Assembly: GCA_050015075.1 (NCBI GenBank)
Contig: JBEKCB010000007.1
Span: 109,747-173,746 of the forward strand
Reading direction: 5' to 3'
DNA from: Candidatus Brocadiia bacterium
GTDB lineage: Bacteria > Planctomycetota > Brocadiia > CAIUPP01
DNA length: 64,000 nucleotides
Part shown: positions 44,482 through 61,600 of the stretch, one piece after another
Numbering within the stretch: the first letter of the stretch is position 1
Layout: the number at the start of each line of letters is the position of its first letter
Notes under the pieces: model-generated
Told to the model about the DNA's origin: nothing
Database searches by the model: none
What the model saw: only the letters and a program-made list of their open reading frames with translations
Position numbers and translations under genes: made by a program

Positions 44482-44491
44482 GCTGTTTTCC

Positions 44492-45202: not shown

Positions 45203-45246
45203 CGTTGCGTTCTCCTTCCATCGGTTCGACACTCACATTCGGCAGG

Positions 45247-45366
45247 ATTCTACACCCGTTGAATGAAAAAGCAACTGAAATGTTACGTCCTGCGGCGAGA
45301 GGCGGCCATCATTGCCCTCCGAAAATGCGCCGGGCCGATTGACAGAATTACGGCTGCGTGTAGAAT
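45247..45366. promoter_or_regulatory. Divergent sigma70-like promoters
   Basis: Plus strand TTGACA(45339)-16 nt-TAGAAT; minus strand TTGCTT(45274)-16 nt-TAGAAT. Both contain GTGTAGAAT. Confidence 0.5.
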
Positions 45367-45404
45367 GGCGCAGGGCGAACGGCAACAGGAACGGGAAGGG
45401 TCCG

Positions 45405-46100
45405 ATGAAACCAGGATCGCGCGGCGCTTCGGCGGGTGCGGGCGGAAGCCGGCCCGAGCTGGAAAGTCTCGGTGAAGTCGGCATCCTCTTCGCCGACCTT
45501 TCCGGCTACACCCAGGTCGTCTATCAGTGCGTAGGCGATGAAGACCGGCTTCAGCGCCTGTCCATGGCGCTTTACCGGCTCTTCAATGCGCCCGGCCATG
45601 CGCATCCGGACATTTCCGTGGAAGGCTACGCCGGGGACGGCTTCCTGGCGTTCAGCCGCGGCCGGACGCCGGTCCGCACCATGTACGACTTCGCGCTGAC
45701 TTTGCACAGCCGTTTCGACGCGGAGACTCGGCCGCTGATGCTGAACCTGGGCTTTCGCGCCAGCGCGGCGCTGCGCACCGGGCTTCACATCGGGCGCGTC
45801 TGGCGCATGAAGTTGTCCGCAGAGCCGGAGCCGCCGCGCTATTCCAACATCTCCGACGCGATCAACGTGGCCAGCCGCGTGGTGGCCGGGCAGGTCTGCC
45901 GCCGGCGCGGCCTAGCCGTGACGCGCGACTGCTATCGCCGCCTGCTCTACGCCGGCCGCAAGGAAGTCCGCGAGCCGGACGAAGTCATCCAGGACCGCAA
46001 CCAGTATCCGGAGCCCATCGAGATCTATCACATCCGGCCGGAGGAGCATCAGCAGATCGTCACCCGCTCGGCCGGACAGGCGAAGAATCCGCCGGCGTGA
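45405..46100 (+). CDS. Class III nucleotidyl cyclase domain protein
   Basis: ILFADLSGYT, YAGDGFLA, RTGLHIG, DAINVASRV. Confidence 0.8.
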   Translation: MKPGSRGASAGAGGSRPELESLGEVGILFADLSGYTQVVYQCVGDEDRLQRLSMALYRLFNAPGHAHPDISVEGYAGDGFLAFSRGRTPVRTMYDFALTLHSRFDAETRPLMLNLGFRASAALRTGLHIGRVWRMKLSAEPEPPRYSNISDAINVASRVVAGQVCRRRGLAVTRDCYRRLLYAGRKEVREPDEVIQDRNQYPEPIEIYHIRPEEHQQIVTRSAGQAKNPPA

Positions 46101-46147
46101 GGCGTGCGCATTCGTTCTGAGACGTCCGCAGAGGTGAGGAGAGTGTG

Positions 46148-48440: not shown

Positions 48441-51053
48441 ATGTCATGCCGGTGGTTGAGGAACCTGATGGACAACGGGCTTGCTTCCTGGTTCAGAATA
48501 TGGCACCCGCGGTATCGGGGCATTCTGGTTCAACTGGCCGTCGCCGCCGCGATTGCCGCCGCGCTCTTATACGTCCAGCAGGGTTTGCTCGACCTTCTGA
48601 CGCTGTCGCTGGCGTCCAACCCTGCGGCGCCCGCCGAGTCGGGCGAGCATGCGGACAAGGCGCTGACGGTCCTCTCGAATGATGCCGCCTCGCTGGGCCT
48701 CACGCCGGCATCGCTGCCGCTGCTCGTCCTGGGACTCTTCATCCTGGTGGCGGTCGTCGCGAGCGCAATAGACTACTGGAAAGTGCGCGTGACGGGCCGG
48801 CTGAGAGTCCGAAGCGAAGATGACCTGGAAGCCGAGATCCTCGCGCACCTGCTGCGGCAGGACGACGCGTTCTTCGCCCGCCATTCGCCCTCCGAGACGG
48901 TCAATCGCCTGGCGGTGGATGTGTACCGGACGACCGAAAACCGGCCGAACCTGATGCTCGCCGTGGCCTCGGTCGCCCTCATCGTCAGCAGCCTGGGCTA
49001 CTTTGTGCAGAAGGACTGGCGGCTGGCGGCGGTGGCTTTCGGAGGCTGCGTCGCGGGCGCCCTGTGGACCTTCCACATGACCAAGCGCGTCAAGGACATG
49101 GACGCCAGCTACCTCCGCTCCGACGACCGGGTCAAATCGCACTTCGAGGATTGCCTGAGAGCGTCTCCGGAGATCCAGGTCGGCGACCTCCATCGCAAGG
49201 TCCGCCGGCATTTTGAGGAGGTCCAGGAGGACCGCACGCAGACGTATCTGCGCTATGTGGGCCTCAACGCGGCGCTGAGCGTGGGCAGCACGGTGTGGTA
49301 CTTGCTGGCATTCATCGCCATGATCTTCGTCGCCCTGCACCTGCGAGGGAGCAGCGGCGAGAACTCGTCGCTGGCCCTGGTCCCGGTGGTGATCTGGGCG
49401 TTGCCGCGCCTGTTCAACAGCGCCTCGTCGCTGGTCTTCCTCAACCTGCAGTTCCAGCTCGCCCGGACCAGCATGAAGCGGCTGCTGGAATACGAGGCCC
49501 TCGCGTCGCCGCCGCCGGCGGGGCAGGCGCAGACGCGCGCCGGCGAGGAAATCGCTCGCGTGGAACCGATCCGCGCCGACCGGGTTACCTATCGGTACGC
49601 AGCCGCCGACGGCACGCAACAAGTCGGCCTGTCGGAGGTCAGCGCCACGTTCGTCCCCGGCCAGTGGACGGCGCTGGTGGGCACAGCCGGCTCGGGCAAG
49701 TCCACCTTGCTCAGGCTGCTGCTCCGGCGGGCCAAGCCGCATGAGGGCGAAATCTTTTACGGCGACCGGCCGCTTCAATCGCTTTCCGACCGGCAACTCG
49801 CCGATCTCCTATCCGTCATGCCCCAGTCGGTGGCGCTGCTGGATGCCGCGATTGGGGAGAACCTGCTGTTCGGCAGAGCCGCGCCCGCCGGCCGGACCTC
49901 GCCCGAGCTGACCGACGCGGACCTCGAAGTGGTGGAAAGCGCGGGCCTCGCAAAGGTCTGCCGGCTTAAAGCGCTCGACATGCTTCCGGAAAAGGAACGC
50001 GGTTGCGCGGAGTTGGCCGGAGGAATCGCGGAGACCCGGAACCGGCTTCGCGAGCGGCTGCGGAAGGAATGCGGCGCGGTCATTCTGCCGTTCGAGGAAG
50101 GCCGCGCGGACGCGAAACACTGGGTGCTCGAGCACCTGTTGAACGGGCGGTGCGACCGTGAAAAGGCCGCGCGGATCCTGCTGCATAAGACGCGCGCCGG
50201 CAGCTTGAAGGCGCTGCCCGGAACGCCGCTGGGCGTCGAACTCGTCCGCGCCGGGCGGGCGGTCCTGCAGCAAAACCGCCACCTGCTCCAGATCCCCAAC
50301 TTCCACGTCTACTGTCAACTGGCCCCGTCGGCGATTGACGAGAGGGTCTGGCAACTGCGGTCGTCCAGCGTCGCGCTCGCCGACGGCGCCGCGCTGTCAA
50401 CGGCGGAAACCCTGGCCTTCTGCGTGATCGCTTTGACGAGTTGCCCGTCCGAGTTCGCGGGCGCCGAAGGTTCCAGAGACTGGGGCAACCCGGACTTCAA
50501 GAACGAGTGCGCCGGGACGATCGCCGGGCTTAGAGAGATGCTCGGCGACGCCTGTAAGGGGTTCGACATCGGCGCGATTCATCCGAACCTGACCTGGCGC
50601 GAGAACCTCATCTTCGGCGTGGTGCAGTCGCAGAACGTCCGAACGCGCCGCCTGGCGGACGAGGCCGTCCTGAACTTCGTCGAGCAGGACGGGCTGCGGC
50701 AGGCGTTCACGCGGCTCGGGCTCGAATTCGGCATCGGCCGCCTCGGCGGCAACCTCTCGGGCGGGCAGCGGCAGCTCGTCGCCTTATGCCGCTCGCTCCT
50801 GCGGCGGACTCCGGTGCTCGTCCTCGACGAGCCGACCTCCGCCCTGGACCCGGCCAGTTGCTCCGCGGTCCTGGCGCTGCTTCACGCCTGGAAGATGAAC
50901 CGGATCCTCATCACGGTGAGTCATGACGTGGAGCTGATGCGGCATGCCGACGTCATCCAGGTGATGGATGGAGGCCGTTTGGTCGCGAAGGGTTCCTTCC
51001 CGGAATTGGAGGCGGGGTCCGACGTTTTCCGCAAGATCCTGCGACAGACATGA
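48441..51053 (+). CDS. ABC exporter (TMD plus NBD) with a large insertion inside the NBD
   Basis: TM domain, GTAGSGKS, MPQ Q-loop; LSGGQRQ, VLVLDEPT and VSH follow only after a long insert. Confidence 0.88.
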   Translation: MSCRWLRNLMDNGLASWFRIWHPRYRGILVQLAVAAAIAAALLYVQQGLLDLLTLSLASNPAAPAESGEHADKALTVLSNDAASLGLTPASLPLLVLGLFILVAVVASAIDYWKVRVTGRLRVRSEDDLEAEILAHLLRQDDAFFARHSPSETVNRLAVDVYRTTENRPNLMLAVASVALIVSSLGYFVQKDWRLAAVAFGGCVAGALWTFHMTKRVKDMDASYLRSDDRVKSHFEDCLRASPEIQVGDLHRKVRRHFEEVQEDRTQTYLRYVGLNAALSVGSTVWYLLAFIAMIFVALHLRGSSGENSSLALVPVVIWALPRLFNSASSLVFLNLQFQLARTSMKRLLEYEALASPPPAGQAQTRAGEEIARVEPIRADRVTYRYAAADGTQQVGLSEVSATFVPGQWTALVGTAGSGKSTLLRLLLRRAKPHEGEIFYGDRPLQSLSDRQLADLLSVMPQSVALLDAAIGENLLFGRAAPAGRTSPELTDADLEVVESAGLAKVCRLKALDMLPEKERGCAELAGGIAETRNRLRERLRKECGAVILPFEEGRADAKHWVLEHLLNGRCDREKAARILLHKTRAGSLKALPGTPLGVELVRAGRAVLQQNRHLLQIPNFHVYCQLAPSAIDERVWQLRSSSVALADGAALSTAETLAFCVIALTSCPSEFAGAEGSRDWGNPDFKNECAGTIAGLREMLGDACKGFDIGAIHPNLTWRENLIFGVVQSQNVRTRRLADEAVLNFVEQDGLRQAFTRLGLEFGIGRLGGNLSGGQRQLVALCRSLLRRTPVLVLDEPTSALDPASCSAVLALLHAWKMNRILITVSHDVELMRHADVIQVMDGGRLVAKGSFPELEAGSDVFRKILRQT

Positions 51054-51514
51054 ACACAACGGTCCTCAGCGTGGCCGAACGCATGCAGGCGCTCGGCAGA
51101 TGTCCCGCCTTCGCGCGGGTCCCGGCCGGCGACCTGAGCGTATTGGCGGAAATGGTCGAGACGGAGCGGCTCGCCGAGGGCGAAATCCTCTTCGAAACAG
51201 GCGAGCCGAGCACGAGCGTCTACGTGATCGCGGCCGGCGCGATGGGAGTCTGGCTTCCCGGCCGGCCCGAACCGGTGCGCAGGCTGGGCGCCGGCGACCT
51301 GCTGGGCGAATACGGGATGTTCTCGCGCCAGGGCCGCACCGCCACCGTCAAGGCTGAAACGCCGGCGGTGCTGCTCTCGCTGGACTACCCGCGCTTTCGC
51401 GCTTTCCTCGTGCAGTTTCCCGAGTCCGCGCTGGTGCTGCTGGAGATCGCCGTCCATCGTCTGACGGCGGCCGAAGCCGGCGACGGCGCCAATGGACGGG
51501 CCAGACATGAGTAG
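51050..51514 (+). CDS. Cyclic nucleotide-binding domain protein
   Basis: GEILFETGE, YVIAAG, GDLLGE, RTATVKA. ATGA-coupled to the ABC gene. Confidence 0.9.
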   Translation: MNTTVLSVAERMQALGRCPAFARVPAGDLSVLAEMVETERLAEGEILFETGEPSTSVYVIAAGAMGVWLPGRPEPVRRLGAGDLLGEYGMFSRQGRTATVKAETPAVLLSLDYPRFRAFLVQFPESALVLLEIAVHRLTAAEAGDGANGRARHE

Positions 51515-52187
51515 TTCGGAATCCATCCTTCAGACCTATCTCGGACTTCTTCCGGCTTCCCCGGAGAGCGGCGTTTTGCGCCTGCTGGTGCAACTGGGCA
51601 TCCAGGTCGTCGGCGCGGACGAGGGATCGCTGCTGGTGCTCGACGAGAAATCGCGTTCACTCGTCTTCGCCATGACCGCCGGCGACCGTGTCTCCGAAAA
51701 AACGCTCATGGGCCAGCGCGTGCCTCTGGGCAAGGGGATCACCGGCCTGGCGGCGGCCACGCACGAGGTGCAGATCGGCGCGCCGACCTACAAGGATATC
51801 CGGCAGACCCGCCGGCGCGGCCGCCCCGCGGGCGCGCCCGAGGCGGTGATCGCGGCGCCGATGCTCATCGGCGACACGCTCATCGGGGTCATCACCTGCG
51901 TCAGCTTCAAGAAGGGAAAGCGCTTCGGCGCTGACGACGCGCGGCTCTATGCGGGGCTCGCCTCCATCGCGGGAGTCGTGGTGGACCAGTGCAGGCGGTT
52001 GTCGGCCGCCGGCGCGGGCCGCGGCGCGCGGGCGTCGCTGAAAGCGTTGGGAGAAATCGGAACGGTCGAGCGGGAGATCGCGCAGTCCATCGCGCGACTG
52101 TCGCGGAAGCGCCCCGAGGCCTTGACGTGCGTCGCGCAGATTCTGAAGTCCGTCGAACGGATCTCTCTTTCCAGCGGCGGAGGATAA
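51507..52187 (+). CDS. GAF domain protein
   Basis: GSLLVLDEKSRSLVF, VPLGKGITG, IAAPMLIGDTLIGVI. Confidence 0.85.
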   Translation: MSSSESILQTYLGLLPASPESGVLRLLVQLGIQVVGADEGSLLVLDEKSRSLVFAMTAGDRVSEKTLMGQRVPLGKGITGLAAATHEVQIGAPTYKDIRQTRRRGRPAGAPEAVIAAPMLIGDTLIGVITCVSFKKGKRFGADDARLYAGLASIAGVVVDQCRRLSAAGAGRGARASLKALGEIGTVEREIAQSIARLSRKRPEALTCVAQILKSVERISLSSGGG

Positions 52188-52949
52188 GTGGCCAGATCGC
52201 GGGGATTGACGGCGGCGGTCCAGGTTCGGCCCGAGGCGCTCGGCAAGGTCAAGCTCAGGCCGGTTGAAGTGGCCATCCTCGACAGCGGGATTGACGCGGG
52301 CCACCCGGCGCTCCGCGGGCGGATCGTCGCGGCGTTCCGCGTGGAGGGCGGGCAGAGGAATCCCAAGGTCCGCCCGGCGCGGCGGAAGAACAATGACGAC
52401 TACGGCCACGGGACGGCGGTCGCCAGCATCATCGCGCGCATCGCTCCGAACGCGCGGCTGGTGGACGTCCGCGTCCTGGGGCCGGACAACCAGGGGTCCG
52501 GCGCGGCGCTGATCGAGGGGCTTCGCTTCGCCGTGGAACGCGGGTCGCGCATCATCAATATGAGCCTGGCCGCGACGGGCGAATTCGCCGCCGACCTGCA
52601 GGCCCTTTGCGAGACCGCGTATTACCAGAACCAGGTCGTCGTCGCGGCGAAAAGAAACATGCCGCTGGTGGACAACGGTTTCCCCGCGGAGTTCTCTTCC
52701 TGCATCGGCGTGGACAACCGCGCTTTTCCCTCGCCGTTCGTCTTCCGTTTCATGCCGGACCAGACCATCGAGTACGCCGCTCATGGAACCGCGGTCGCGG
52801 TCGCGGCCCCGGGCGGCGGCTACTCCACCAAGACCGGGACGAGCTTCGCCACTCCGACGATCACCGGGATCTGCGCCCGGATGCTGGGCGCTTACCCGGA
52901 TATGCGCCCGTTTGAGGTCAAGTCGCTGCTCAAGCTGTTCGCGCGGTGA
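52188..52949 (+). CDS. S8 subtilisin-family peptidase, no signal peptide
   Basis: ILDSGID, HGTAVA, GTSFATP catalytic triad. Confidence 0.92.
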   Translation: MARSRGLTAAVQVRPEALGKVKLRPVEVAILDSGIDAGHPALRGRIVAAFRVEGGQRNPKVRPARRKNNDDYGHGTAVASIIARIAPNARLVDVRVLGPDNQGSGAALIEGLRFAVERGSRIINMSLAATGEFAADLQALCETAYYQNQVVVAAKRNMPLVDNGFPAEFSSCIGVDNRAFPSPFVFRFMPDQTIEYAAHGTAVAVAAPGGGYSTKTGTSFATPTITGICARMLGAYPDMRPFEVKSLLKLFAR

Positions 52950-54172
52950 GTGGACGGACGCGGACGCGGGAACTCTTTTATCGGGACGCCGCCGTGGTCG
53001 CTGTGAACCGTTCGACTCGTTGCCGGTTCCTCTCTCGCACGCGGACCGTCATCCTTGCGGTCACGAACGACTGCAACATGGCCTGTTCGTACTGCTACCA
53101 GGACTCGCGGCTCATTCCGCGCGGAGGAAAGGCGCGACTCTTGCCCGCGGAGGTCGCCCGAGCGGCGCTTTCGGACATCGTCCGCACGACATCTTCCCGG
53201 CGCGTCGGCGTCATTTTTCACGGCGGGGAACCGACGCTGGCTCCGCAGGAATGGTATCGAGAGGTCATTGCGCCCGTTTCGCGGCTGGCCGCCAGGTCGG
53301 GCAAGAGCCTTCAGTTCCACATGCAGAGCAACGGGCAGTTGATTGACGATTCGTGGGCATCGTGTTTTCGCGCTCTGGCGATCAACGTCGGAATCAGCAC
53401 CGACGGCCCGGCCGAGGTGTCGCTGCCCTATCGGGCGGGCAGCGAGAACGCGGCGCGCGCGGTGCGCGTCATGCAGGCCTACGGACTGCGGCCCGGAGCG
53501 ATTGTGGTGGCCACGCCGCGCAACCTTCCGGTCATCGGCGATGTCATGAGCTATCTGGCCGATCTTCAGTTAGATGGTTTTCATCTCCTGCCATGGCTCG
53601 CCTTTGGACGTTCTCACGACGCCTCCGACGCCGCCTATCGGCAGATGCTCCTCGCCGGCTACATCCAGGTCGCCGAGACGCTCCTCGCAAATCCGGGCTA
53701 TCCGGTCGAGGCGCGCCTGGCTCTCTACGTTTCGCGATTTGTCGGAAAGCCGACGAGTTCGATCAAGGCCACCGGTTGTCAGAGCCTCAGAAAGCCTTGC
53801 GGCAGGCAACTGATCTACTTAGACGAAACGGGCGGCATCTATCCCTGTCAATCGCTCCATTCGGACGCCTTGGAATTCGGCCGGGCCACAGCGAATGGAA
53901 TCAGGTCGTGCACGCGGCCGGTTTTGCCTGAGGCGAGCCCGATGGCTGAGCGTCATCGCATCCGTTGCGCCCTGTGCGCGGCCGGCAGGATCTGCACTTA
54001 TGGTTGCGCTGCCGACGACGGTTCTGAGGCCGGACAGTGGCGCTGTGAATTGGCGCAAGGACTTTATGAGTACTTCCTGGCGAATACATCTCGCGCCGCG
54101 CGGCTGCACGATATCCTAAGTGAATCGCGAAACTACCGCCGGACTCGAGTCTGTAAGGACCAGGTCGCATGA
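52946..54172 (+). CDS. Radical SAM/SPASM-domain maturase 1
   Basis: CNMACSYC, FHGGEPTL, QSNG, GGIYPC, CALC...CTYGC. GTGA overlap with the S8 gene. Confidence 0.88.
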   Translation: MSGRTRTRELFYRDAAVVAVNRSTRCRFLSRTRTVILAVTNDCNMACSYCYQDSRLIPRGGKARLLPAEVARAALSDIVRTTSSRRVGVIFHGGEPTLAPQEWYREVIAPVSRLAARSGKSLQFHMQSNGQLIDDSWASCFRALAINVGISTDGPAEVSLPYRAGSENAARAVRVMQAYGLRPGAIVVATPRNLPVIGDVMSYLADLQLDGFHLLPWLAFGRSHDASDAAYRQMLLAGYIQVAETLLANPGYPVEARLALYVSRFVGKPTSSIKATGCQSLRKPCGRQLIYLDETGGIYPCQSLHSDALEFGRATANGIRSCTRPVLPEASPMAERHRIRCALCAAGRICTYGCAADDGSEAGQWRCELAQGLYEYFLANTSRAARLHDILSESRNYRRTRVCKDQVA

Positions 54173-54360
54173 AAATAAGAATCAAGGCCTTGGATGGTTC
54201 TTTCTATGAAGTCGAGGAATCGCGGCTTCAGGCGTATAAAGTTCCCGCCGAGGAAGTCGCGGGGCAGTTGCAACACTTGAAGGGTTCCTTGCGGCTGGAC
54301 CTGGCCAGGGAGTTAGATGCGCCGGTACCCAAACGGCCGCGGCGGCGCAAGAGGAGGTGA
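54169..54360 (+). CDS. Small peptide with leader-like N-terminus and EVAGQ motif; possibly a degenerate precursor
   Basis: AAGGA RBS, ATGA overlap, DGSFYEV..., EEVAGQ. Confidence 0.55.
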   Translation: MKIRIKALDGSFYEVEESRLQAYKVPAEEVAGQLQHLKGSLRLDLARELDAPVPKRPRRRKRR

Positions 54361-54434
54361 TCGCTTAGAAGCCATGCGAAGAAGAGGGTGGTGAGTGCGG
54401 TCCATGTACGATCATTTGGTTAGGAAGACAGGCC

Positions 54435-54620
54435 ATGTCATTGATTACGGTGGATGCGAAAGGCAACGTGTACCTCGTCCCCGATAATGTGCTGAAGAAG
54501 TATTGCAGGAAAGTCGGCCGGATCAGCGACAAGAAGCGCAAGGGAACCGCCCAGGTCGAAGGCCAGGACTGGTTGATTTGCCAGGCCTGGCTGAACTGTT
54601 CAGGAACCAAGGGCGGCTGA
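54435..54620 (+). CDS. Candidate RiPP precursor peptide A
   Basis: MSLITVDAKGNVYLVP...QVEGQ-DWLICQAWLNCSGTKGG. Paralog of 55855..56052. Confidence 0.8.
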   Translation: MSLITVDAKGNVYLVPDNVLKKYCRKVGRISDKKRKGTAQVEGQDWLICQAWLNCSGTKGG

Positions 54621-54640
54621 TTTCCACTGCGGAAGAACTC

Positions 54641-55819
54641 ATGGTAGCGCAGATCGCTGCGACGTCCGGAGCGTACATGAAGAAGGTGAACTGGCTTCAC
54701 CTCCGGGCGCACGACTCCTGCAACCTGTCCTGCTCGTACTGTGTCATGTCGGCGCGCCGCGGGCGCCCCGGCGCGGACGCCATGACGGCGGAACAGGCCG
54801 TTGAGATCCTGCGGCTGCTCCTGGAGCATTCGTCCGCGCCCAGGATTACGGTTGAGATTTCCGGCGGCGAGCCCCTTCTTTGCGGCAGCCGCTGGATCGC
54901 CGCCGTGTGCGGCGGGCTCCGCGCGATGGAGAGGCAGTACGCGAAGCGGCTCGATCTTTGGATCACCACGAACGGCACTCTCCTGACCGAGGAAATCATT
55001 GCGATCATCCGGGACTGCAAGGCCAAGCTTTCCGTGGGCGTGGACGCCCCGGCAGGCGTCTCGGGCGAGGTCAAGACGCTCGATCGCCGGGTCCGCAAGG
55101 GAATCGAGCTGCTCCAGAAGCTGTACGCGACGCCGGGCATCAATGCCGTGGCCACGCTGCCGGCGATGCGCCACGTCACGCGATTCATGGACGAGCTGAA
55201 GCAGATGAACATCCGAGTGTTCCGGCTCACCGCCGTCAACAGCCGGGGCCGCGCGTCGTCGGCGCCGGCGCTGCTCCCCACGGCCAAGGACGCCCTCGCC
55301 TGCACGATGCGGCTAATCCGGTACATGGACCGCTGCGGTTTCTCCATCGTTGAGGCGAGCGCGCTGGATCGCGTCTACCGTTATATGGGAGACGTGTACG
55401 AACCTAACTTCTGCAACGCTCCCGCTTGTCCGGCGGGGAGCGGATTCCTGGCGGTGGACGCAAACGGCGACGTCTATCCCTGCGGGAATGAAACGCGAGA
55501 CCGTTTCATCATGGGCAACATCTACGACGGCTTCGACGGACCGCGCAGCCGACGCGTTCTCTCCGCCTACCACGGCGAGCTTGCCCCGTTTGTCCGTTGC
55601 GTGTATTGTAAGGCCGGCCGGATATGCCATTATGGGTGTCCGGGATGCCTGCATGAAGGAGACACGAGGCATTTCGACGCGGAATGCCAATTGACGCAGA
55701 TGCTGTTCGAGCGTTTCGAGCGAAACCGCGTGGCGATTGGGGAGATATATCGAAAGGCAAAAAGCAACGCGCCGGCGTGCGGCCGCAAACAATCTTCGGG
55801 CGTTCAAGGTGAACGCTAG
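54641..55819 (+). CDS. Radical SAM/SPASM-domain maturase 2 (start may be 54677)
   Basis: CNLSCSYC, SGGEPLL, TTNG, CNAPACPAG...GDVYPC, CVYC...CHYGCP. Confidence 0.9.
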   Translation: MVAQIAATSGAYMKKVNWLHLRAHDSCNLSCSYCVMSARRGRPGADAMTAEQAVEILRLLLEHSSAPRITVEISGGEPLLCGSRWIAAVCGGLRAMERQYAKRLDLWITTNGTLLTEEIIAIIRDCKAKLSVGVDAPAGVSGEVKTLDRRVRKGIELLQKLYATPGINAVATLPAMRHVTRFMDELKQMNIRVFRLTAVNSRGRASSAPALLPTAKDALACTMRLIRYMDRCGFSIVEASALDRVYRYMGDVYEPNFCNAPACPAGSGFLAVDANGDVYPCGNETRDRFIMGNIYDGFDGPRSRRVLSAYHGELAPFVRCVYCKAGRICHYGCPGCLHEGDTRHFDAECQLTQMLFERFERNRVAIGEIYRKAKSNAPACGRKQSSGVQGER

Positions 55820-55854
55820 AGCTTCCTTAGAAAACTCGAGAAAGGAGACGTACA

Positions 55855-56052
55855 ATGGCCGGTGTCATTGCCGTTGATCGAAAAGGCATTGTCTATCTGA
55901 TTCCGCAGGCCATCCTGACCAAGCATTGTAAGAAAGTCGGGTGGCTGAGCGAGAAGAAACGGAAAGTGCCGGGCAGAGGTCAAGTCCAGGGACAGGGAGA
56001 TGATTGGCTCGCCTGCCAGGCATGGGTTAATTGTTCATTGCATCCTAAATGA
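55855..56052 (+). CDS. Candidate RiPP precursor peptide B
   Basis: AAGGAG RBS. MAGVIAVDRKGIVYLIP...QVQGQ-GDDWLACQAWVNCSLHPK. ATGA-coupled to the B12-rSAM gene. Confidence 0.82.
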   Translation: MAGVIAVDRKGIVYLIPQAILTKHCKKVGWLSEKKRKVPGRGQVQGQGDDWLACQAWVNCSLHPK

Positions 56053-58181
56053 GGATCGCCATACTTTCGCCGCCGCTGGGGTCACTCACTCAAGCGCCTT
56101 TGAGTCTGCCGAGCCTGACGGCTTTTCTTCGTGAATCAGGACATCAGGTGGCTCAGCACGACTTGGGTATCAAGTGCATTGACCTGATGCTCACGCCCGA
56201 TTACCTTGACAAGTTGCGCGCGCGCATCAACGCCCGGGCCTCTCACCGGCGTACTCCCCGCGGATTGTCGCCTAAGGATAAGACGCGATGGCGGATAGCG
56301 GTCACCTCGGCCCTGGCCGCGGGTGATTGGACGATCGCCCATATTGAAGAGGCCAAGCGCGTCATGCGCTCTCCGGAGCGTTTTTACCGCAGGGATGAGT
56401 ATGTAGGCGCGAAGAATGCCATTCGGAACGCCCTGCAAATTGTGACGGCGGCATATTTCCCTCTGGAATTAATCTTCAACGAAATCCGATACCCGTTTGT
56501 CGCCTCATTAGATGCAATCCTGGATATGGCGCCTGACAGGAGTCCTTTTACTGAGCCGATGCGGTCGGCCGTGGCCGCAACTCTGCCCCAGCTGCCGCCT
56601 TTAGTCGGCATTTCAATCACGTTCTACGACCAACTGGTCGCCGGGTTTCAACTGGCCGGAATGATCAAGAGGAGGAAGCCGGAAACACACGTCGTGTTAG
56701 GTGGGGCGGCCGTCGCCGCTTCAGAGGAAGCGATACGACGGCACGCGCGGGCGTTCGAGCGCGTGGACAGTTATGTCTTTGGTGAAGGCGAAGCCGGTCT
56801 GCTTGCGTTGGCGACGCTCCTGGAAGAACGCGAGCCGCGCGTCGCGATGCCGGGGAATGTGTACATTTCGCCTGAACTGCCTGCGAGCCGGTACGAGTCC
56901 GGCGACAAGGACCACTGTCAACGAATGAACGGCGACACGTTTCCAACTCCCGACTACACCGGGCTGAATGTTCAGGACTACCTGACGCCTGAGCCCATGT
57001 TCTCATTGTCGAACGCGCGGGGATGTTATTGGCGCAAGTGCGCATTCTGTAATGTCTCCCTGAGCTTCATGCGGGAGTTCCGGCAACGGAGCATGAAACG
57101 TGTTCAACAGGATATAGCGACACTTGTTTCCCGGCACAAAGCTAAGTGGATTTTCTTTGCCGATGATTGCGTGCCGCCTTCACGTTGCCGGGAACTGGCC
57201 GATTACTTAAGAGGGAAGAAACGCCCCGTTTATTGGGTCACGGAATGCCGTTTCGAGAAAGCGTTTTCGCCGAGGCTGCTGCGTTCGATGTATCGGGGCG
57301 GTTGCCGGCAGCTCACGTTCGGAAACGAGTCGGCGAACCAGCGCGTGCTCGACCGCATGCGGAAGGGAACCCGGGCTCCATGGAACAGAAAACTCATCCG
57401 GGCCGCGGCCAGAGCCGGCATCGCGGTGCATCTCCAGAACTTTTTGGGATTTCCCGGCGAGCGCGCGAGCGAAGCTCGAGAGACGGTGGCACTGCTTCTG
57501 GATGAACGCAAGCATATCGCTTCCACGGCGCTGGGATGCTTCCACGTCACGGCCGATTCTCCGGTCCATCGCTTTCCTTCGCAATTCGGTGTGACGAAGC
57601 TCAGGAGAGTCCAGAAAGAAGGCCTGGTGCCGGCGTTCGCTTTCTCATGCCGTACCGGAATGGGGCCGGAACACGTGAAGGAGATGTGGAACAATGCCGA
57701 GGCCGCGCTGAGGCGCGCTTACCCGCACTGGGATGCTTTTCTCGACGGGGTGTTAGGTTTGCACGCCGTTTTGTATATGGCGCGATTCCAGTGCAACAAG
57801 TTCGACGACATCTTCGGTGTGAGGCGAATGCCGCGGAATATCCTTTCGCTCTACCCGCGGGCGCATCCGGGCGTGGTGTGCAGTTTTTCCGCCGGCCGGA
57901 AACCGATGTGCGCGGTCTTCAGCACGCGCACCGGCGGCTGCATGCTCGTTCAGGGAGCATTGGCCGCCGTGTTGAAGGTGGCGGACGGCTCGCACAGCGT
58001 CGCTTCCCTGCTCGGGGCCGCGGCGTCCGTCAAATCGTTGAGAGGGAATCGAACTCGCATCGAGTGTGGCACGACGGTCGTCCTGGGGCTCATGGATTTG
58101 TACCGGAGCGGGTTGATTGACTTGAAGGCCGGCGCTTTTGAAACGCATGAAGCGAGGCCGCAGAAAGGAGGCGGAACTTAG
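56049..58181 (+). CDS. B12-dependent radical SAM enzyme with C-terminal RRE/PqqD-like domain
   Basis: VGISITF, VVLGG, GEGE, RGCYWRKCAFC, FADD, FGNES, GFPGE; C-terminal AVFSTRTG...VADGSHSVASLL...LYRSGLI. Confidence 0.88.
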   Translation: MRIAILSPPLGSLTQAPLSLPSLTAFLRESGHQVAQHDLGIKCIDLMLTPDYLDKLRARINARASHRRTPRGLSPKDKTRWRIAVTSALAAGDWTIAHIEEAKRVMRSPERFYRRDEYVGAKNAIRNALQIVTAAYFPLELIFNEIRYPFVASLDAILDMAPDRSPFTEPMRSAVAATLPQLPPLVGISITFYDQLVAGFQLAGMIKRRKPETHVVLGGAAVAASEEAIRRHARAFERVDSYVFGEGEAGLLALATLLEEREPRVAMPGNVYISPELPASRYESGDKDHCQRMNGDTFPTPDYTGLNVQDYLTPEPMFSLSNARGCYWRKCAFCNVSLSFMREFRQRSMKRVQQDIATLVSRHKAKWIFFADDCVPPSRCRELADYLRGKKRPVYWVTECRFEKAFSPRLLRSMYRGGCRQLTFGNESANQRVLDRMRKGTRAPWNRKLIRAAARAGIAVHLQNFLGFPGERASEARETVALLLDERKHIASTALGCFHVTADSPVHRFPSQFGVTKLRRVQKEGLVPAFAFSCRTGMGPEHVKEMWNNAEAALRRAYPHWDAFLDGVLGLHAVLYMARFQCNKFDDIFGVRRMPRNILSLYPRAHPGVVCSFSAGRKPMCAVFSTRTGGCMLVQGALAAVLKVADGSHSVASLLGAAASVKSLRGNRTRIECGTTVVLGLMDLYRSGLIDLKAGAFETHEARPQKGGGT

Positions 58182-58258
58182 GGGAAACGGCAATCGCACC
58201 GTGCGCAATTCTGTGGTCAGTGTTCCTGCAATCAATGCTTTTGTGAAAGGATCGCACG

Positions 58259-58438
58259 ATGGCCGAAACGATGATCATCGCCATCATCAAGGGGAAGAAG
58301 CTGAGCGCGAAAGAGCAGGCCGCCGTCCGCAAGAGAGTCCAGAAGGCGTTGGCCGGCACGTCTGAGGTGGCCGGGCAGGACGGCGAAACCTGCGTGGGCG
58401 TCAGTGTCGCGCCCGTGACGGTTTCTTATTGCAAGTGA
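58259..58438 (+). CDS. Candidate RiPP precursor peptide C (59 aa, missing from the ORF track)
   Basis: AAGGA RBS. MAETMIIAIIKGKKLSAKEQAAVRKRVQKALAGTSEVAGQ-DGETCVGVSVAPVTVSYCK. Confidence 0.7.
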   Translation: MAETMIIAIIKGKKLSAKEQAAVRKRVQKALAGTSEVAGQDGETCVGVSVAPVTVSYCK

Positions 58439-58624: not shown

Positions 58625-61600
58625 ATGGAGACGCAGTTCCATCGCGAGTACCTGTTGCGTCTTCCGCTGCCGGTGGCGCAATTGTATAGTCGGGCGTACA
58701 ACGCCAAGGACGCGCGAAGCCGGCACGATAACTGCTACTACCTGTTCGAAGTGCTCATCAAGCTCTCCGCGTGCCCGTTGACGGCGTGTTATGTGCAGGA
58801 AATACGCCGCGGCGGGCAGCGCGTCGCCAAGCTGGATCAGCTTCTTCTGCAACTGGCGTTTCCGTCGCTGGGGCAGTGGATGGCGATCCTGCGGGAGACC
58901 GCGCGGCATTACGGCTCGCTGCCGGATGCGGCGTCGCATCCGCTGGGGCAGATGTGGGGCCAGTTGAACCGTCCGCAGCATGATCCTTCCGCCCTCGCCG
59001 CGCTCTACCGCCGGATCAAGAACGGGCCGGACGGCCAGCCCGCGGGCGACAAGAGTTGCACGATCCTCCAATTGTTCGAGGCGCTGGTGCAGTACCGCAA
59101 TGGCGTGGTCGGGCACGGAGCGGGGCGCTTCGAATCGTTTTACGCCAATGACATGGGGCCGCTGCTCTTCCCGGCGGTGAATGAGATACTGGCGGAAGGA
59201 GTATTCTCGCCTCTGGGTCCGGCCGGGGCGCGGCTGGCGTACCTGACGGAGTTGCGCGCGGTGTCGGAGGACCGGTTCGAGCTGGGCATGCGGGAGCTGA
59301 CCGGCGCGCAGGGCGAGCGGATGGCGTCGCTGGCGCTGGAGGCGGGCGAGGCGGCGGGGCTGGCGCCGAACCGCGCGGCGGTGCTGTGGCCGGGATTGCG
59401 CGCGCCGCTGCGGCTGGACCCGCTGATGATCTTTCGGGAGAGCGAGGTCGCCGACGAAGTGCTGCTGCTCAACGGTGAGCGCGGCGGCCGGCAGGTGGAG
59501 TACCTGAGCTACACGACGGGTCGGACGGAGCGGACGAAGGACACGGCCGCGGAGCTGGCGGCCCTGCTCTCCATCCTGGCCGGCAAGGAGGTCACGGAGT
59601 CGAAGCTCCAGCAGTTGGCGGAGTTGAGCCGCGCCGCGGTCCCTTCCGTCGAGGCGCTGACGGAGCCGGCCGCGCCGGTGCGGCGGCAGTTGGGCGACTA
59701 CGAGATCCTGGCGGAGATCGGCCGGGGCGGAATGGGCGTGGTGTATCTCGCGCGCCAGTTGTCGCTCGGCCGCCTGGTGGCGTTGAAGACGCTTCCGGCC
59801 GACCTGGCGGGAGACGAGGTGGCGCTGGCGCGGTTCCGGCGGGAGATGCGCGCGCTGTCCCGGTGCGATCATCCGAACATCGTCAAGCTCCTCGACAGCG
59901 GCGTATTCGCGGACGGCCAGGTTTACTACACGATGGAGTACGTCGCAGGCTGCGACCTGGACCAGGTGTGGCACGAACTGTCTCGGTCGGGGTTGGCGCG
60001 GGAGTCGTCGAAGCTGGGGAACAGCACGTTTGCGCGAGCGGTGATCTCGGCGAGCGGGCGGCGGCGCAAGGAAGTGGAATCGCGCTGCGCGGCCTCCGGC
60101 GCGGGCGAGCCGAGACCCGCCGCGGACCAGGAGCCGCCTGCGGTGCCGAAGCTGCCGCTGCCGCCGTTGCCTCCTCTGCCGGAAGTGAGCGAGGACTCGG
60201 GCGGCTACGTGCGAAAGGTGGTGGCGCTGATCCGGGACGCGGCGCTGGCGCTACAGGCGGTGCATGACCAGGGCATCGTGCACCGCGATATCAGCCCGGC
60301 GAACCTGATGCTGACGCCGGACGGATCGCGCGTGGTGTTGATGGACTTCGGGCTGGTGAAGGGGCAGAACCTGTCGCGCTCGCTGACGGAAAAGGGCGGG
60401 TTCGTCGGCAAGCTCCGCTACGCCGCGCCGGAGCAACTGGCCGCGGCCATGCTGAAGGTGGGTCCTCAGGCGGACGTCCGAGGGCTGGGCGTGACGCTCT
60501 GGGAACTGCTGACGCGCCACCGGCTCTTCGAGGAGGCGCACGACGAACGGCAGTTGACGACGCTGGTGCATGAGAAGGACGTGCCGCGCCTTCGGCAGAT
60601 GGATTCGAACTTCGACCGGGACCTGGAGGCGATCGTCGCGCGGGCCACGGAACGGAACGCCGGCGACCGCATCGAGTCGGCCGGGCGGCTGGCGGAATAT
60701 TTGCAGCTTTACCTGGACGGGAAGCCGCTCCCGATCCGCACGCCGACGCTGCGGGAGATGGCCTGGCGCTGGAGCCGGGCGCATAAGCCGCTTGTGGGCG
60801 CGGCGGCGGTGGTGCTGGTCATAGCCGCGGCGGGCCTGGTCTGGTGGTGGCGCTTGCCCGGGACGCTGAGCCTGGACGTGTCGCCCGCCGACGCGCAGAT
60901 AGAAATCGCCGGCCGGACCATCCAGCCGGGTGAAATGCCTCTCCAGATGAAGCTCCCGGCGGGCGTTTACCAGGTGCGCATCCGCAAAGACGGCTTTGCG
61001 GACGAACAGCGCGAAGTCGCCGTGCTGCGCGGCGGTTTCAAGTCACTGCCGCGTGTGTCGCTCATACCTTATCGGGGCACGCTGGGCGTGCAGGCGTGGC
61101 CGCCGGGCACTACGATCGAATTCAACGGCGTGGACTACGCGGCGCCCATCAAGGAGCTTTCCGTTGACACGGGCGTCTACGACCTGCGCGCCCGGGCGGA
61201 CGAATGCTTTGACGCGCTTCACACGGTCCGGATCAATCGCGATCAGCGGACCGAGGACCGGTTCTCGCTCGAACGCGGCTTCCGGTGGAAAGAGCCCTAC
61301 ACCTCGCCGGCCATTCAGAGCGGGGTAGTGATCGTTCCCGGCCCGAAGCCCGGCGACCTCGCAGCTATCGTGCATAACGAAATCGGCCAGATCGTTTTCC
61401 TGTCCGCGGCCAGTGGAGAGCTCGTGGAGAGCATCCCGACGCCGGCCGGCAACATGCGGACATTCACGCAGCTCGACCTGGGCGGAGATGTCGGCAAGGT
61501 GATCGTATCGGGCTTCGAGGACGAGACGGCCGGGCCCAGCGTGCTCGCGATTGGGGCCCATTGGCCGGCAAAAACGCTGTGGGAGTGGCAGGGACCTGCC

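What the first reader, a model, noticed from the sequence alone, without database searches (positions are those of the whole stretch)
52946..58438. Candidate novel RiPP system: three radical SAM enzymes interleaved with four small peptides sharing an (E/Q)-V-x-G-Q motif
Seen in sequence: gene order is rSAM/SPASM-1, peptide (EEVAGQ), peptide A (QVEGQ), rSAM/SPASM-2, peptide B (QVQGQ), B12-rSAM, peptide C (EVAGQ). All are on one strand with RBSs and several ATGA/GTGA overlaps. In A, B and C the motif is followed by a 17-19 aa Cys-containing tail. Established: SPASM rSAMs install thioether and aromatic C-C crosslinks in RiPPs, and B12-rSAMs add C-methyl groups. Inference: VxGQ marks the leader/core boundary, and the upstream-coupled cytoplasmic S8 protease and ABC exporter could cleave and export the product. 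I do not recognise this leader family or enzyme combination as a described RiPP class.
Basis: partly seen in the sequence, partly recalled or inferred. Interest (0 to 1): 0.92.

Follow-up and report, generated by a model that had tools for sequence, protein, structure and literature searches.

The report
Rare radical-SAM peptide gene cluster
An uncultured peat bacterium carries a rare gene cluster in which iron-sulfur "radical SAM" enzymes sit next to small tryptophan- and cysteine-containing peptides of an undescribed family that they most likely cross-link, so it probably makes an unknown modified peptide.

Summary
On the + strand lie an S8 protease, rSAM/SPASM-1, a 63-aa ORF (pep0), peptide A, rSAM/SPASM-2, peptide B, a B12-rSAM and peptide C, with RBSs and ATGA/GTGA overlaps.

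- **Coding:** all four small ORFs change mostly at third codon positions.
- **New family:** A and B belong to a peptide family with no Pfam or NCBIfam model. It has a conserved beta-hairpin/helix leader and a core with W-x-x-C, (W/H)-x-(N/D)-C and exactly two Cys in 13 of 13 members.
- **Conserved cassette:** only rSAM-1/pep0/precursor/rSAM-2 recurs outside this genus (locus L022). The S8, ABC exporter, B12-rSAM, B and C do not.
- **Junction motif:** VxGQ is a plausible leader/core junction for A, B and C, and for 8 of 13 family members. In pep0 it is not conserved (EEVARQ, EEIERQ), and pep0 has no Cys or Trp, so it looks like an accessory protein.
- **Known families:** every enzyme scores far below every curated family cut-off. 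The closest analogues are QhpCDEF maturation, triceptides and ranthipeptides.
- **Rarity:** one genus among about 185,000 species genomes.

Verdict: a new variant of rSAM-modified RiPPs. The chemistry is untested.

The parts
52188..52949 (+). Small S8 (subtilisin-like) protease, 253 aa, with no N-terminal hydrophobic signal. It is the candidate leader peptidase.
   Evidence: Pfam Peptidase_S8 scores 9.4e-26. The best NCBIfam hit is QhpE at 97.8 bits, below the cut-off of 165. It is the only QhpE-like match in the genome at E<=1e-5. A GTGA overlap joins it to rSAM-1. DSG, HGT and GTSFATP motifs are visible in the translation.
52946..54172 (+). rSAM/SPASM-1, 408 aa. CxxxCxxC lies at residues 43-50, so there is no room for an N-terminal RRE. 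The C-terminus carries a full set of SPASM cysteines.
   Evidence: Pfam Radical_SAM and Fer4_12. Best NCBIfam hits are DynA 110.1, AmcB 105.4, anSME 100.1 and PapB 93.2 bits, all far below cut-offs of 340-450. It matches the SPASM domain model TIGR04085 at 27.0 bits, at that model's 27-bit cut-off. Closest solved structures are anSME 4k37 (6.5e-14) and the triceptide synthase ChlB 9gm3 (1.2e-12). It is 75% identical to the L022 orthologue.
54169..54360 (+). pep0, a 63-aa conserved small protein without Cys or Trp. It is probably an accessory partner rather than a precursor.
   Evidence: An ATGA overlap joins it to rSAM-1. It is present in all three loci with context: the window, G001 and L022. 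Differences from L022 by codon position are [11,11,29]. The motif reads EEVAGQ, EEVARQ and EEIERQ in the three loci. Its likeness to the A/B leader is weak (hhalign E 0.035, probability 1.5%).
54435..54620 (+). pepA, a 61-aa precursor. The leader is residues 1-44 and ends QVEGQ. The core is DWLICQAWLNCSGTKGG.
   Evidence: Differences from L027 by codon position are [2,0,8]. It belongs to a 13-sequence family with invariant D7, G10, Y13, W46, C49, W52 and C55. AlphaFold2 with the 13-row alignment gives strands 3-6 and 12-15 and a helix 17-23, at pLDDT 70-82 over residues 1-30.
54641..55819 (+). rSAM/SPASM-2, 392 aa, with no N-terminal RRE.
   Evidence: Pfam Radical_SAM, Fer4_12 and SPASM. Best NCBIfam hits are PapB 100.3, QhpD 81.8, the SCIFF maturase 72.7 and CcpM 71.2 bits, all below their cut-offs. 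It is 26% identical to rSAM-1 (E 4e-27). Only 8 orthologue clusters (57-100% identity) exist among 5.8 billion proteins.
55855..56052 (+). pepB, a 65-aa precursor and paralogue of pepA. Its core is GDDWLACQAWVNCSLHPK.
   Evidence: It is 65% identical to pepA. Differences from L027 by codon position are [5,3,10]. It has a strong AAGGAG RBS, and its stop overlaps the B12-rSAM start as ATGA.
56049..58181 (+). B12-binding rSAM, 710 aa. It is a candidate peptide C-methyltransferase with a C-terminal extension of about 140 aa of unknown fold.
   Evidence: Pfam B12-binding and Radical_SAM. The best NCBIfam hit is TIGR03975, RiPP maturation rSAM C-methyltransferase, at 137.6 bits against a cut-off of 281.85. 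No solved relative was found. Relatives in the phylum (24-35% identity) mostly align no further than about residue 520-600, and none of their listed alignments extends past residue 609.
58259..58438 (+). pepC, a 59-aa precursor with a different leader that ends SEVAGQ. Its core is DGETCVGVSVAPVTVSYCK.
   Evidence: Differences from L027 by codon position are [1,0,7]. Three clusters at 80-100% identity keep the motif as EV[AV]GQ and keep both Cys.
48441..51053 (+). ABC exporter, 870 aa, with a transmembrane domain and a nucleotide-binding domain. It is a possible exporter, but the association is unproven.
   Evidence: Pfam ABC_membrane and ABC_tran. NCBIfam hits are MsbA 192.7 bits and the NHLP bacteriocin export ABC TIGR03797 at 167.7 bits, both below cut-off. 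It is not present at L022.
51050..52187 (+). A cNMP-binding protein (51050-51514) and a GAF protein (51492-52187). They are possible regulators that are co-oriented with and overlap the cluster genes.
   Evidence: Pfam cNMP_binding 2.4e-16 and GAF_2 4.7e-10. There is a weak hit to TIGR03896, bacteriocin-type transport-associated protein, at 27.4 bits against a cut-off of 161.

Best explanation
This is a RiPP biosynthetic locus of an uncultured peat planctomycete. A 92%-identical record is titled 'Candidatus Brocadiia bacterium'.

**Shown**
- The conserved unit is rSAM/SPASM-1, pep0, precursor, rSAM/SPASM-2.
- The precursors form a new family. A roughly 30-residue leader head (x-V/I-D-x-x-G-x-x-Y … L-x-K-H/Y) models as a beta-hairpin plus helix. 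A variable basic linker follows, then a short core.
- In all 13 members the core has W-x-x-C, (W/H)-x-(N/D)-C and exactly two Cys.
- All the small ORFs evolve as coding sequence.

**Inferred mechanism**
1. The two RRE-less SPASM enzymes bind the structured leader, possibly with help from pep0, which is translationally coupled to rSAM-1. They install two kinds of cross-link in the core.
2. rSAM-2 is nearest to PapB, QhpD and SCIFF maturases. I propose it makes Cys thioether(s).
3. rSAM-1 is nearest to DynA, AmcB and ChlB. I propose it makes an aromatic-to-C-beta cyclophane on the (W/H)-x-(N/D) triad.
4. In this genus an added module, B12-rSAM plus pepC, probably C-methylates the Val-rich pepC core.
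5. The single small cytoplasmic QhpE-like S8 protease cuts after (E/Q)-V-x-G-Q.
6. The ABC transporter may export the 17-19-aa products.

The biological role is unknown. It could be an antibiotic or a signal. The setting among a cyclase and cNMP, GAF and kinase genes hints at regulated release.
For: **Enzyme identities:**

**The small ORFs are coding.** Differences by codon position:

| ORF | vs L027 | vs L022 |
|---|---|---|
| pepA | [2,0,8] | [23,19,31] |
| pepC | [1,0,7] | not present |
| pepB | [5,3,10] | not present |
| pep0 | [9,4,12] | [11,11,29] |
| rSAM-1 | [23,16,74] | [64,44,144] |

The intergenic stretches are flat ([5,4,5] and [2,2,3]).

**The family is real.** A profile search of 1.84 billion proteins gave 25 hits at E<=1e-3. 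Twelve are short peptides with the same leader and core.

**Core motifs:** W-x-x-C in 13 of 13, [WH]-x-[ND]-C in 13 of 13, two Cys in 13 of 13, and VxGQ in 8 of 13.

**Linkage of peptide and enzymes.** All three loci with readable context (window, G001/L027 and metagenome L022) have rSAM-1, pep0, a precursor and rSAM-2 in the same order. None of the 79 distant rSAM loci (36% identity or less) has such a peptide within 10 kb.

**Leader fold:** pLDDT 70-82 over residues 1-30.

**Junction motif.** It is shared by unrelated leaders (A/B, C and the C6 ORF), each beside rSAM genes. That is 4 of 20,423 small ORFs.

**Protease:** the S8 is the only QhpE-like gene in the genome.

**Known precedents.**
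- Triceptide chemistry works on aromatic-X-X motifs including His, and ChlB is a triceptide synthase (passages of PMC11499958).
- In QHNDH maturation a cytoplasmic subtilisin, an ABC exporter and an rSAM thioether enzyme act on one leader-bearing peptide (passages of PMC7876137).
Against: - No chemistry, transcription or translation data exist. No RNA run holds the locus.
- Every enzyme is far below every curated family cut-off. The thioether and cyclophane assignments rest on the ranking of weak hits only.
- The S8, ABC, B12-rSAM, pepB and pepC are absent from L022, the only independent locus. L022 ends in a transposase fragment.
- VxGQ is missing in 5 of 13 family members.
- The C6 ORF with EVSGQ was not found in G001-G003, so it has no conservation support.
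- The likeness of pep0 to the leader is not significant.
- The context of 9 of the 12 short hits could not be fetched. P0003 and P0004 look like the A and B types of a relative, but their loci were not read either.
- The two Cys could simply form a disulfide.
Confidence: 0.72

Rival explanations
1. There are four equivalent precursors, pep0 included. All are cut at VxGQ, and all are processed by one pathway of three rSAM enzymes plus the S8 and ABC.
For: All four ORFs in the window carry VxGQ. The genes are co-oriented and overlap.
Against: The motif in pep0 reads EEVARQ in G001 and EEIERQ in L022, while its flanks stay conserved. pep0 has no Cys or Trp, and its tail is a variable Arg/Lys run. 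L022 has the cassette without the B12-rSAM, pepB, pepC, S8 or ABC. pepC has an unrelated leader.
Confidence: 0.1
2. The cluster makes not a free natural product but a QhpC-like, protein-derived cross-linked subunit or cofactor. The Trp/Cys/Asp core would become a thioether-caged (quinone) peptide that joins a periplasmic enzyme.
For: The best hit of the S8 is QhpE and the second-best hit of rSAM-2 is QhpD. An ABC exporter lies upstream. In QHNDH, QhpD makes Cys-Asp/Glu thioethers, QhpE removes a 28-aa leader in the cytoplasm, and QhpF exports. The cofactor there is a Cys-Trp quinone (passages of PMC7876137). The core here has invariant Trp and Cys, and usually Asp or Asn.
Against: The scores are below cut-off: QhpE 97.8 against 165, QhpD 79-82 against 453. 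No QhpC-family match was found in the genome, though that search rang in no control genome either. No dehydrogenase or flavoprotein partner lies in the window. The cores are only 12-20 residues, and L022 has no such partners.
Confidence: 0.07
3. The rSAM/SPASM enzymes act on something other than the neighbouring peptides, for example anSME-like maturation of proteins. The small ORFs would then be unrelated small proteins.
For: anSME is the closest solved structure to rSAM-1 and a top-3 NCBIfam hit. The complex prediction gave no answer.
Against: The order rSAM-1/pep0/precursor/rSAM-2 is kept in an independent metagenome locus while the flanks differ. The orthologous enzymes are as rare as the peptides: 8 clusters, one genus among the species genomes. 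The peptides have a leader/core layout with invariant Trp and Cys. The anSME score is 100 bits against a cut-off of 349.
Confidence: 0.05

Closest known systems
QHNDH gamma-subunit maturation (QhpC with QhpD rSAM/SPASM, QhpE subtilisin and QhpF ABC exporter)
   Same: Both combine a small cytoplasmic S8 protease, an SPASM rSAM and an ABC exporter acting on a leader-bearing peptide whose key residues are Cys, Trp and Asp (passages of PMC7876137). QhpE is the best family hit of the S8, and QhpD is among the top hits of both rSAMs.
   Different: All scores are below the family cut-offs. No QhpA, QhpB or QhpG partners are present. The cores are 12-20 aa rather than a subunit of about 80 aa. There are two rSAM enzymes and an extra small protein. 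The leader is unrelated.
Triceptides (three-residue cyclophane RiPPs; XyeB, GrrM, FxsB, YhhB, AmcB and ChlB maturases) and dynobactin (DynA)
   Same: The maturases are RRE-less SPASM enzymes. An aromatic-X-X motif is present, here (W/H)-x-(N/D) in 13 of 13 members. His and Trp are both accepted in known systems. DynA and AmcB are the top two hits of rSAM-1, and ChlB is its second-closest solved structure.
   Different: The scores are 105-110 bits against cut-offs of 425-450. Two invariant Cys and a second, thioether-type rSAM are present, and neither is a triceptide feature.
Ranthipeptides and sactipeptides (PapB, the SCIFF maturase, CteB, CcpM)
   Same: rSAM-2 ranks PapB, the SCIFF maturase and CcpM at the top, with CteB as its closest solved structure. 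The core has invariant Cys, with Asp or Asn nearby.
   Different: The scores are 71-100 bits against cut-offs of 340-500. No SCIFF or PapA-type precursor model hits the peptides. The spacing is D-x3-C, not C-x3-D. That PapB acts on C-x3-D is recalled, not read here.
B12-rSAM C-methyltransferases of NHLP/Nif11-type RiPPs (TIGR03975; proteusin-like)
   Same: The best family hit of the 710-aa enzyme is TIGR03975. The neighbouring pepC core is Val-rich. The leader end 'EVAGQ' resembles the 'xVAGG' end of NHLP and Nif11 leaders, which is recalled rather than tested.
   Different: The score is 137.6 bits against a cut-off of 281.85. The pepC leader hits no NHLP or Nif11 model. The nearest relatives in the phylum (24-35% identity) are not next to such peptides in the 7 loci read.

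Membership tests
Triceptide (3-residue cyclophane) RiPPs | The precursor carries aromatic-X-X motifs that are cross-linked. | tested here: met
   [WH]-x-[ND] directly before the second Cys is present in 13 of 13 family members. The definition comes from passages of PMC11499958. Only the presence of the motif was tested, not the cross-link.
Triceptide (3-residue cyclophane) RiPPs | The maturase belongs to a curated cyclophane-synthase family (XyeB, GrrM/OscB, FxsB, YhhB, AmcB). | tested here: not met
   rSAM-1 scores AmcB 105.4/425, GrrM 74.7/310, YhhB 66.4/445, FxsB 56.4/370 and XyeB 51.9/450 bits (score/cut-off). rSAM-2 scores lower.
Triceptide (3-residue cyclophane) RiPPs | There is an aromatic C to C-beta bond (-2 Da). 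| not testable with these tools
   This needs MS and NMR of the modified peptide.
Ranthipeptide / SCIFF / PapB | The maturase passes the PapB or SCIFF-maturase model. | tested here: not met
   PapB scores 100.3 bits (rSAM-2) and 93.2 bits (rSAM-1) against a cut-off of 340. The SCIFF maturase scores 72.7 and 63.8 bits against 425.
Ranthipeptide / SCIFF / PapB | The precursor belongs to a known Cys-rich family (SCIFF or PapA type). | tested here: not met
   NCBIfam and Pfam gave 0 families for all four peptides at E<=0.01.
Ranthipeptide / SCIFF / PapB | There is a thioether from Cys S to a non-alpha carbon. | not testable with these tools
   This needs MS/MS, thiol labelling and NMR.
Darobactin / dynobactin | The maturase passes the DarE, DarW or DynA model. 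| tested here: not met
   DynA scores 110.1/450, DarW 66.8/650 and DarE 58.8/650 bits (score/cut-off) for rSAM-1.
QHNDH maturation (QhpCDEF) | QhpD, QhpE and QhpC family membership. | tested here: not met
   QhpD scores 79.4 and 81.8 bits against 453, and QhpE 97.8 against 165. The QhpC model PF08992 had no match in the genome, but that search rang in no control genome, so that part is inconclusive.
QHNDH maturation (QhpCDEF) | Dehydrogenase subunits and the QhpG flavoprotein lie in the operon. | tested here: not met
   None is among the genes of 43-64 kb.
NHLP/Nif11-type RiPP with B12-rSAM C-methyltransferase (TIGR03975) | The enzyme passes TIGR03975, and the precursor has an NHLP or Nif11 leader. 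| tested here: not met
   The enzyme scores 137.6 bits against 281.85. pepC has no family hit. An NHLP-clan domain (NF038399, 43.3 bits against 40) is present, but on a different gene on the other strand, at 44492-45232.
RiPP cluster in general (precursor with leader and core beside its maturase) | A short conserved ORF with a conserved leader and a Cys/aromatic core is genetically linked to peptide-maturase-type enzymes across loci. | tested here: met
   

The most novel reading that the evidence does not exclude
This may be a new RiPP class. Two RRE-less SPASM radical-SAM enzymes would work with a small partner protein (pep0) that is translationally coupled to the first enzyme and faintly resembles the leader. 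They would act on a folded beta-hairpin leader and build a doubly cross-linked Trp/Cys core. The core would be either a hybrid of a thioether and a Trp(His)-to-Asn/Asp cyclophane, or a direct radical-SAM-made Trp-Cys link at the two W-x-x-C motifs. The organism may also use one QhpE-like cytoplasmic subtilisin and a common (E/Q)VxGQ junction for several unrelated precursor families.
Probability: 0.3. Interest if true: 0.75.

Novelty: new variant of a known kind. Interest (0 to 1): 0.55.

Why it matters
Radical-SAM-modified peptides are a main source of new cross-link chemistry and of leads such as darobactin. This locus offers four things:

- a compact, conserved four-gene cassette that can be tested directly in E. 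coli;
- a precursor family with an unusually structured leader and a tiny invariant Trp/Cys core;
- two enzymes without the usual leader-recognition domain, plus a conserved small protein that may take over that role;
- a candidate shared protease site.

It comes from an uncultured peat planctomycete, a group with almost no characterised natural products. If the chemistry proves to be a known thioether or cyclophane, the find is a routine addition to the catalogue.

Tried and rejected
- **Complex prediction:** rSAM-1 with pep0 (residues 1-50) gave no answer, ipSAE 0.00 in two runs, and the controls were not folded. This is evidence neither way.
- **Expression:** no RNA holder was listed for the locus. 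All 24 runs listed are DNA metagenomes, 23 peat and one wetland.
- **Reads:** I laid contigs of 4 runs. They gave only strain variants and some contigs that diverge upstream of the B12-rSAM start. I draw no conclusion from them.
- **Protein atlas:** pep0 gave nothing usable, and the B12-rSAM C-terminus scored 0.83 or less, which is a lead only.
- **RRE hypothesis for the B12-rSAM C-terminus:** Pfam found nothing. A single-sequence AlphaFold2 model had pLDDT 41. Its strand-strand-strand-helix-helix-helix order is compatible with an RRE but is too uncertain to use, so I did not run a fold search.
- **pep0 against the leader profile:** E 0.035, not significant.
- **Promoter and terminator scan:** the counts equal those of the shuffles.
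- **Genome-collection scan with the peptide pattern:** 600 pattern matches, none a relative.
- **Distant rSAM-2 relatives in the phylum:** 3 of 400 other genomes at E<=1e-30, with 26-27% identity. No such peptide lies in their short flanks.
- **Other SPASM loci in the genome:** there are 15 SPASM matches in all. Scanning around the other loci found no convincing VxG[QG] peptide apart from C6.
- **Literature:** eight searches were run. Six looked for a described match and found no description of this leader, core or cluster. A seventh fetched the QHNDH maturation paper as background. The eighth was spoiled, because 'dyna' matched 'dynamics'. Only open-access papers and preprints were searched. 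Subscription papers and all supplements, for example the precursor lists of the rSAM-RiPP atlases, were not visible and could hold this family.
- **Unexamined hits:** 13 of the 25 profile hits are long repeat proteins. I looked at 3 of them (P0005, P0009 and P0010) and did not examine the other 10.

Full report
**What is there.** The stretch 52188-58438 carries eight co-oriented genes on the + strand:

| Gene | Coordinates | Size |
|---|---|---|
| S8 protease | 52188-52949 | 253 aa |
| rSAM/SPASM-1 | 52946-54172 | 408 aa |
| pep0 | 54169-54360 | 63 aa |
| pepA | 54435-54620 | 61 aa |
| rSAM/SPASM-2 | 54641-55819 | 392 aa |
| pepB | 55855-56052 | 65 aa |
| B12-binding rSAM | 56049-58181 | 710 aa |
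| pepC | 58259-58438 | 59 aa |

Stop and start codons overlap at S8/rSAM-1 (GTGA), rSAM-1/pep0 (ATGA) and pepB/B12-rSAM (ATGA). AGGA-type ribosome-binding sites precede pep0, pepA, rSAM-2, pepB and pepC. Pfam and NCBIfam confirm the enzyme classes. His observation is confirmed.

**Are the small ORFs genes?** A genome of the same genus (G001, locus L027) is collinear with the window at 92-94% nucleotide identity. A metagenome locus (L022) carries more distant orthologues. I counted the differences by codon position:

| ORF | vs L027 | vs L022 |
|---|---|---|
| pepA | [2,0,8] | [23,19,31] |
| pepC | [1,0,7] | not present |
| pepB | [5,3,10] | not present |
| pep0 | [9,4,12] | [11,11,29] |
| rSAM-1 | [23,16,74] | [64,44,144] |

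The two intergenic stretches are flat ([5,4,5] and [2,2,3]). All four small ORFs therefore evolve as coding sequence. No RNA data could be found.

**The A/B peptides are a new family.**
- pepA and pepB are 65% identical paralogues.
- None of the four peptides hits any Pfam or NCBIfam model at E<=0.01.
- A word-based search of 5.8 billion proteins found 3 close relatives.
- A profile search of 1.84 billion representatives found 25 proteins at E<=1e-3. Twelve are short peptides with the same layout.
- The other 13 are long repeat proteins. Of the three I read, one is a beta-propeller-type repeat whose blade motif resembles the leader head.
- In the 13-sequence alignment the invariant residues are D7, G10 and Y13 in the leader and W46, C49, W52 and C55 in the core.
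- By pattern:
  - 13 of 13 have W-x-x-C.
  - 13 of 13 have (W/H)-x-(N/D)-C.
  - 13 of 13 have exactly two core Cys.
  - 8 of 13 have VxGQ just before the core.
- AlphaFold2 with this alignment models leader residues 1-30 as a hairpin plus a short helix at pLDDT 70-82. The rest is disordered.

**What is conserved around them.** L022 has rSAM-1 (75% identity), pep0, one precursor (P0006, without VxGQ) and rSAM-2 (76%) in the same order. A transposase fragment follows. It has no S8, ABC, B12-rSAM, pepB or pepC, and its upstream genes are unrelated.

The system is rare:
- rSAM-2 has only 8 orthologue clusters (57-100% identity) in 5.8 billion proteins.
- Among the species genomes scanned, only the same-genus MAG is close. 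The other 79 loci kept are 36% identical or less.
- Among 400 other genomes of the phylum, the best rSAM-2 relatives are 26-27% identical.
- A family HMM run over all 107 fetched loci and the whole genome found the peptides only in this genus and in L022.

The conserved unit is therefore rSAM-1, pep0, precursor and rSAM-2. The rest may be accessory to this genus.

**pep0.**
- It is present in all three loci, is coupled to rSAM-1 and is under selection.
- It has no Cys or Trp.
- Its 'motif' varies (EEVAGQ, EEVARQ, EEIERQ) while the residues on both sides are invariant. It ends in a variable Arg/Lys tail.
- I read it as an accessory protein, not a precursor.
- Its N-terminus looks like the leader head by eye, but the profile comparison is not significant (E 0.035).
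- The complex prediction gave no answer.

**The enzymes.**
- Both SPASM enzymes begin their CxxxCxxC motif within about 45 residues, so they have no N-terminal RRE. They are 26% identical to each other.
- rSAM-1 ranks DynA (110 bits), AmcB (105), anSME (100) and PapB (93).
- rSAM-2 ranks PapB (100), QhpD (82), the SCIFF maturase (73) and CcpM (71).
- All these scores are far below cut-offs of 340-500 bits.
- The closest solved structures are anSME and ChlB for rSAM-1, and CteB for rSAM-2.
- The B12-rSAM is nearest TIGR03975 (137.6 bits against a cut-off of 281.85).
- Its relatives in the phylum (24-35% identity, in 93 of 400 other genomes) mostly align no further than about residue 520-600, and none of their listed alignments extends past residue 609.
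- In the 7 of these loci that I read, the 6 from the window's own class lie next to an argininosuccinate-synthase-like gene, and none of the 7 lies next to a pepC-like ORF.

**The VxGQ junction.**
- pepC has an unrelated leader but ends SEVAGQ. Its two other known variants read SEVVGQ.
- Genome-wide, 4 of 20,423 small ORFs pass the filter '[EQ]VxGQ plus a Cys-containing tail of 8-30 aa'. They are pepA, pepB, pepC and a 90-aa ORF on contig C6.
- The C6 ORF's Cys-rich tail follows EVSGQ, and the ORF overlaps the first of two tandem rSAM/SPASM genes (TIGR04463-like, 188 and 212 bits against a cut-off of 525).
- This supports a shared leader/core junction. However, the C6 ORF was not found in three related genomes, and 5 of 13 A/B-family members lack the motif.
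- The S8 is the only QhpE-like protease in the genome. That makes it the natural candidate peptidase, by inference only.

**Most likely mechanism.** I put about 0.72 on the general scheme, and less on each chemical step. The two SPASM enzymes bind the folded leader, possibly through pep0, and cross-link the core. I assign thioether formation from Cys to rSAM-2. I assign an aromatic-to-C-beta cyclophane on (W/H)-x-(N/D) to rSAM-1. Both assignments rest on the hit rankings, and on the triceptide rule that aromatic-X-X motifs, His included, are the substrates (passages of PMC11499958). In this genus the B12-rSAM probably methylates the Val-rich pepC core, the S8 cuts after GQ, and the ABC transporter may export the product.

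The nearest known system by architecture is QHNDH maturation. There an rSAM makes Cys-Asp/Glu thioethers, a cytoplasmic subtilisin removes a 28-residue leader, and an ABC transporter exports (passages of PMC7876137). Every membership test by model score failed.

**Novelty and weight.** No curated model hits the peptides, and none of the six literature searches for a match found one. Subscription papers and supplements were not visible. I rate this a new variant of a known kind, the rSAM/SPASM-modified RiPPs. It is rare and compact enough to test directly, and its chemistry is unknown.

New rSAM precursor families are found often. One of his four peptides is not a precursor. The protease, exporter and B12 links are not conserved beyond the genus.

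Noticed in passing
window 43006-45232 (- strand): A second RiPP-like pair lies here. A 246-aa ORF (44492-45232) has an N-terminal domain that passes the NCBIfam model NF038399, 'Os1348 family NHLP clan protein' (43.3 bits, cut-off 40). A hydrophobic stretch ending in a lipobox-like LAGC follows, then a long Pro-rich tail. Next to it is a 518-aa B12-binding rSAM (43006-44562) whose best hit is ApyD at 171 bits, below the cut-off of 750. The ABC and cNMP genes between the two clusters could serve either one.
   Followed up: partly
G000 contig C6:150199-153292 (locus L107:4200-7293, - strand): A 90-aa ORF ends …GEVSGQ plus a 28-aa tail with 5 Cys. It overlaps the first of two tandem rSAM/SPASM genes (TIGR04463-like, 188 and 212 bits, cut-off 525). 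The peptide has no family hit and was not found in G001-G003.
   Followed up: partly
window 48441-51053: The ABC exporter's nucleotide-binding domain matches in two pieces (about residues 397-489 and 704-869). This implies an insertion of roughly 200 aa inside the ATPase domain. There is no C39 peptidase domain.
   Followed up: no
pepA/pepB leader, window 54435-54520 and 55855-55940: The leader head (x-V-D-x-K-G-N-V-Y-L-I/V-P) resembles one blade motif of beta-propeller repeat proteins. The profile search pulled in 13 long multi-repeat proteins, among them P0009 with repeated 'AVDTKGNVYVTG'. A nine-repeat frame on contig C50 of the same genome also matched.
   Followed up: no
loci L109-L119 (class relatives): Relatives of the 710-aa B12-rSAM (24-35% identity) occur in 93 of 400 other genomes of the phylum, and in 17 of 17 genomes of family f4. 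In the 6 f4 loci I read, the gene sits directly after an argininosuccinate-synthase-like gene. This looks like a conserved, non-RiPP context of unknown meaning.
   Followed up: partly
whole genome G000: The 4.64-Mb genome has 15 matches to the SPASM domain model, all at or above the cut-off. That is a large complement of SPASM radical-SAM enzymes.
   Followed up: partly
window 45312-48436 and 58625-63742: The cluster is framed by signalling genes. Upstream lie an adenylate/guanylate-cyclase-domain protein and a 763-aa protein with a trypsin-like domain. Downstream lies a 1705-aa Ser/Thr kinase with PEGA and PQQ-type beta-propeller domains.
   Followed up: no
window 56048-56049 and 58382 (peat contigs laid): Contigs from other peat runs match the B12-rSAM gene but diverge immediately upstream of its start. 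One contig joins a different leader end, which reads …SEVSGQ in my own translation, onto the pepC core. This hints that the B12-rSAM/pepC module is mobile or variable among related strains.
   Followed up: no
L022:11663-11977: A transposase-like fragment lies directly downstream of rSAM-2 in the metagenome locus. The cassette there may therefore be truncated or recently moved.
   Followed up: no
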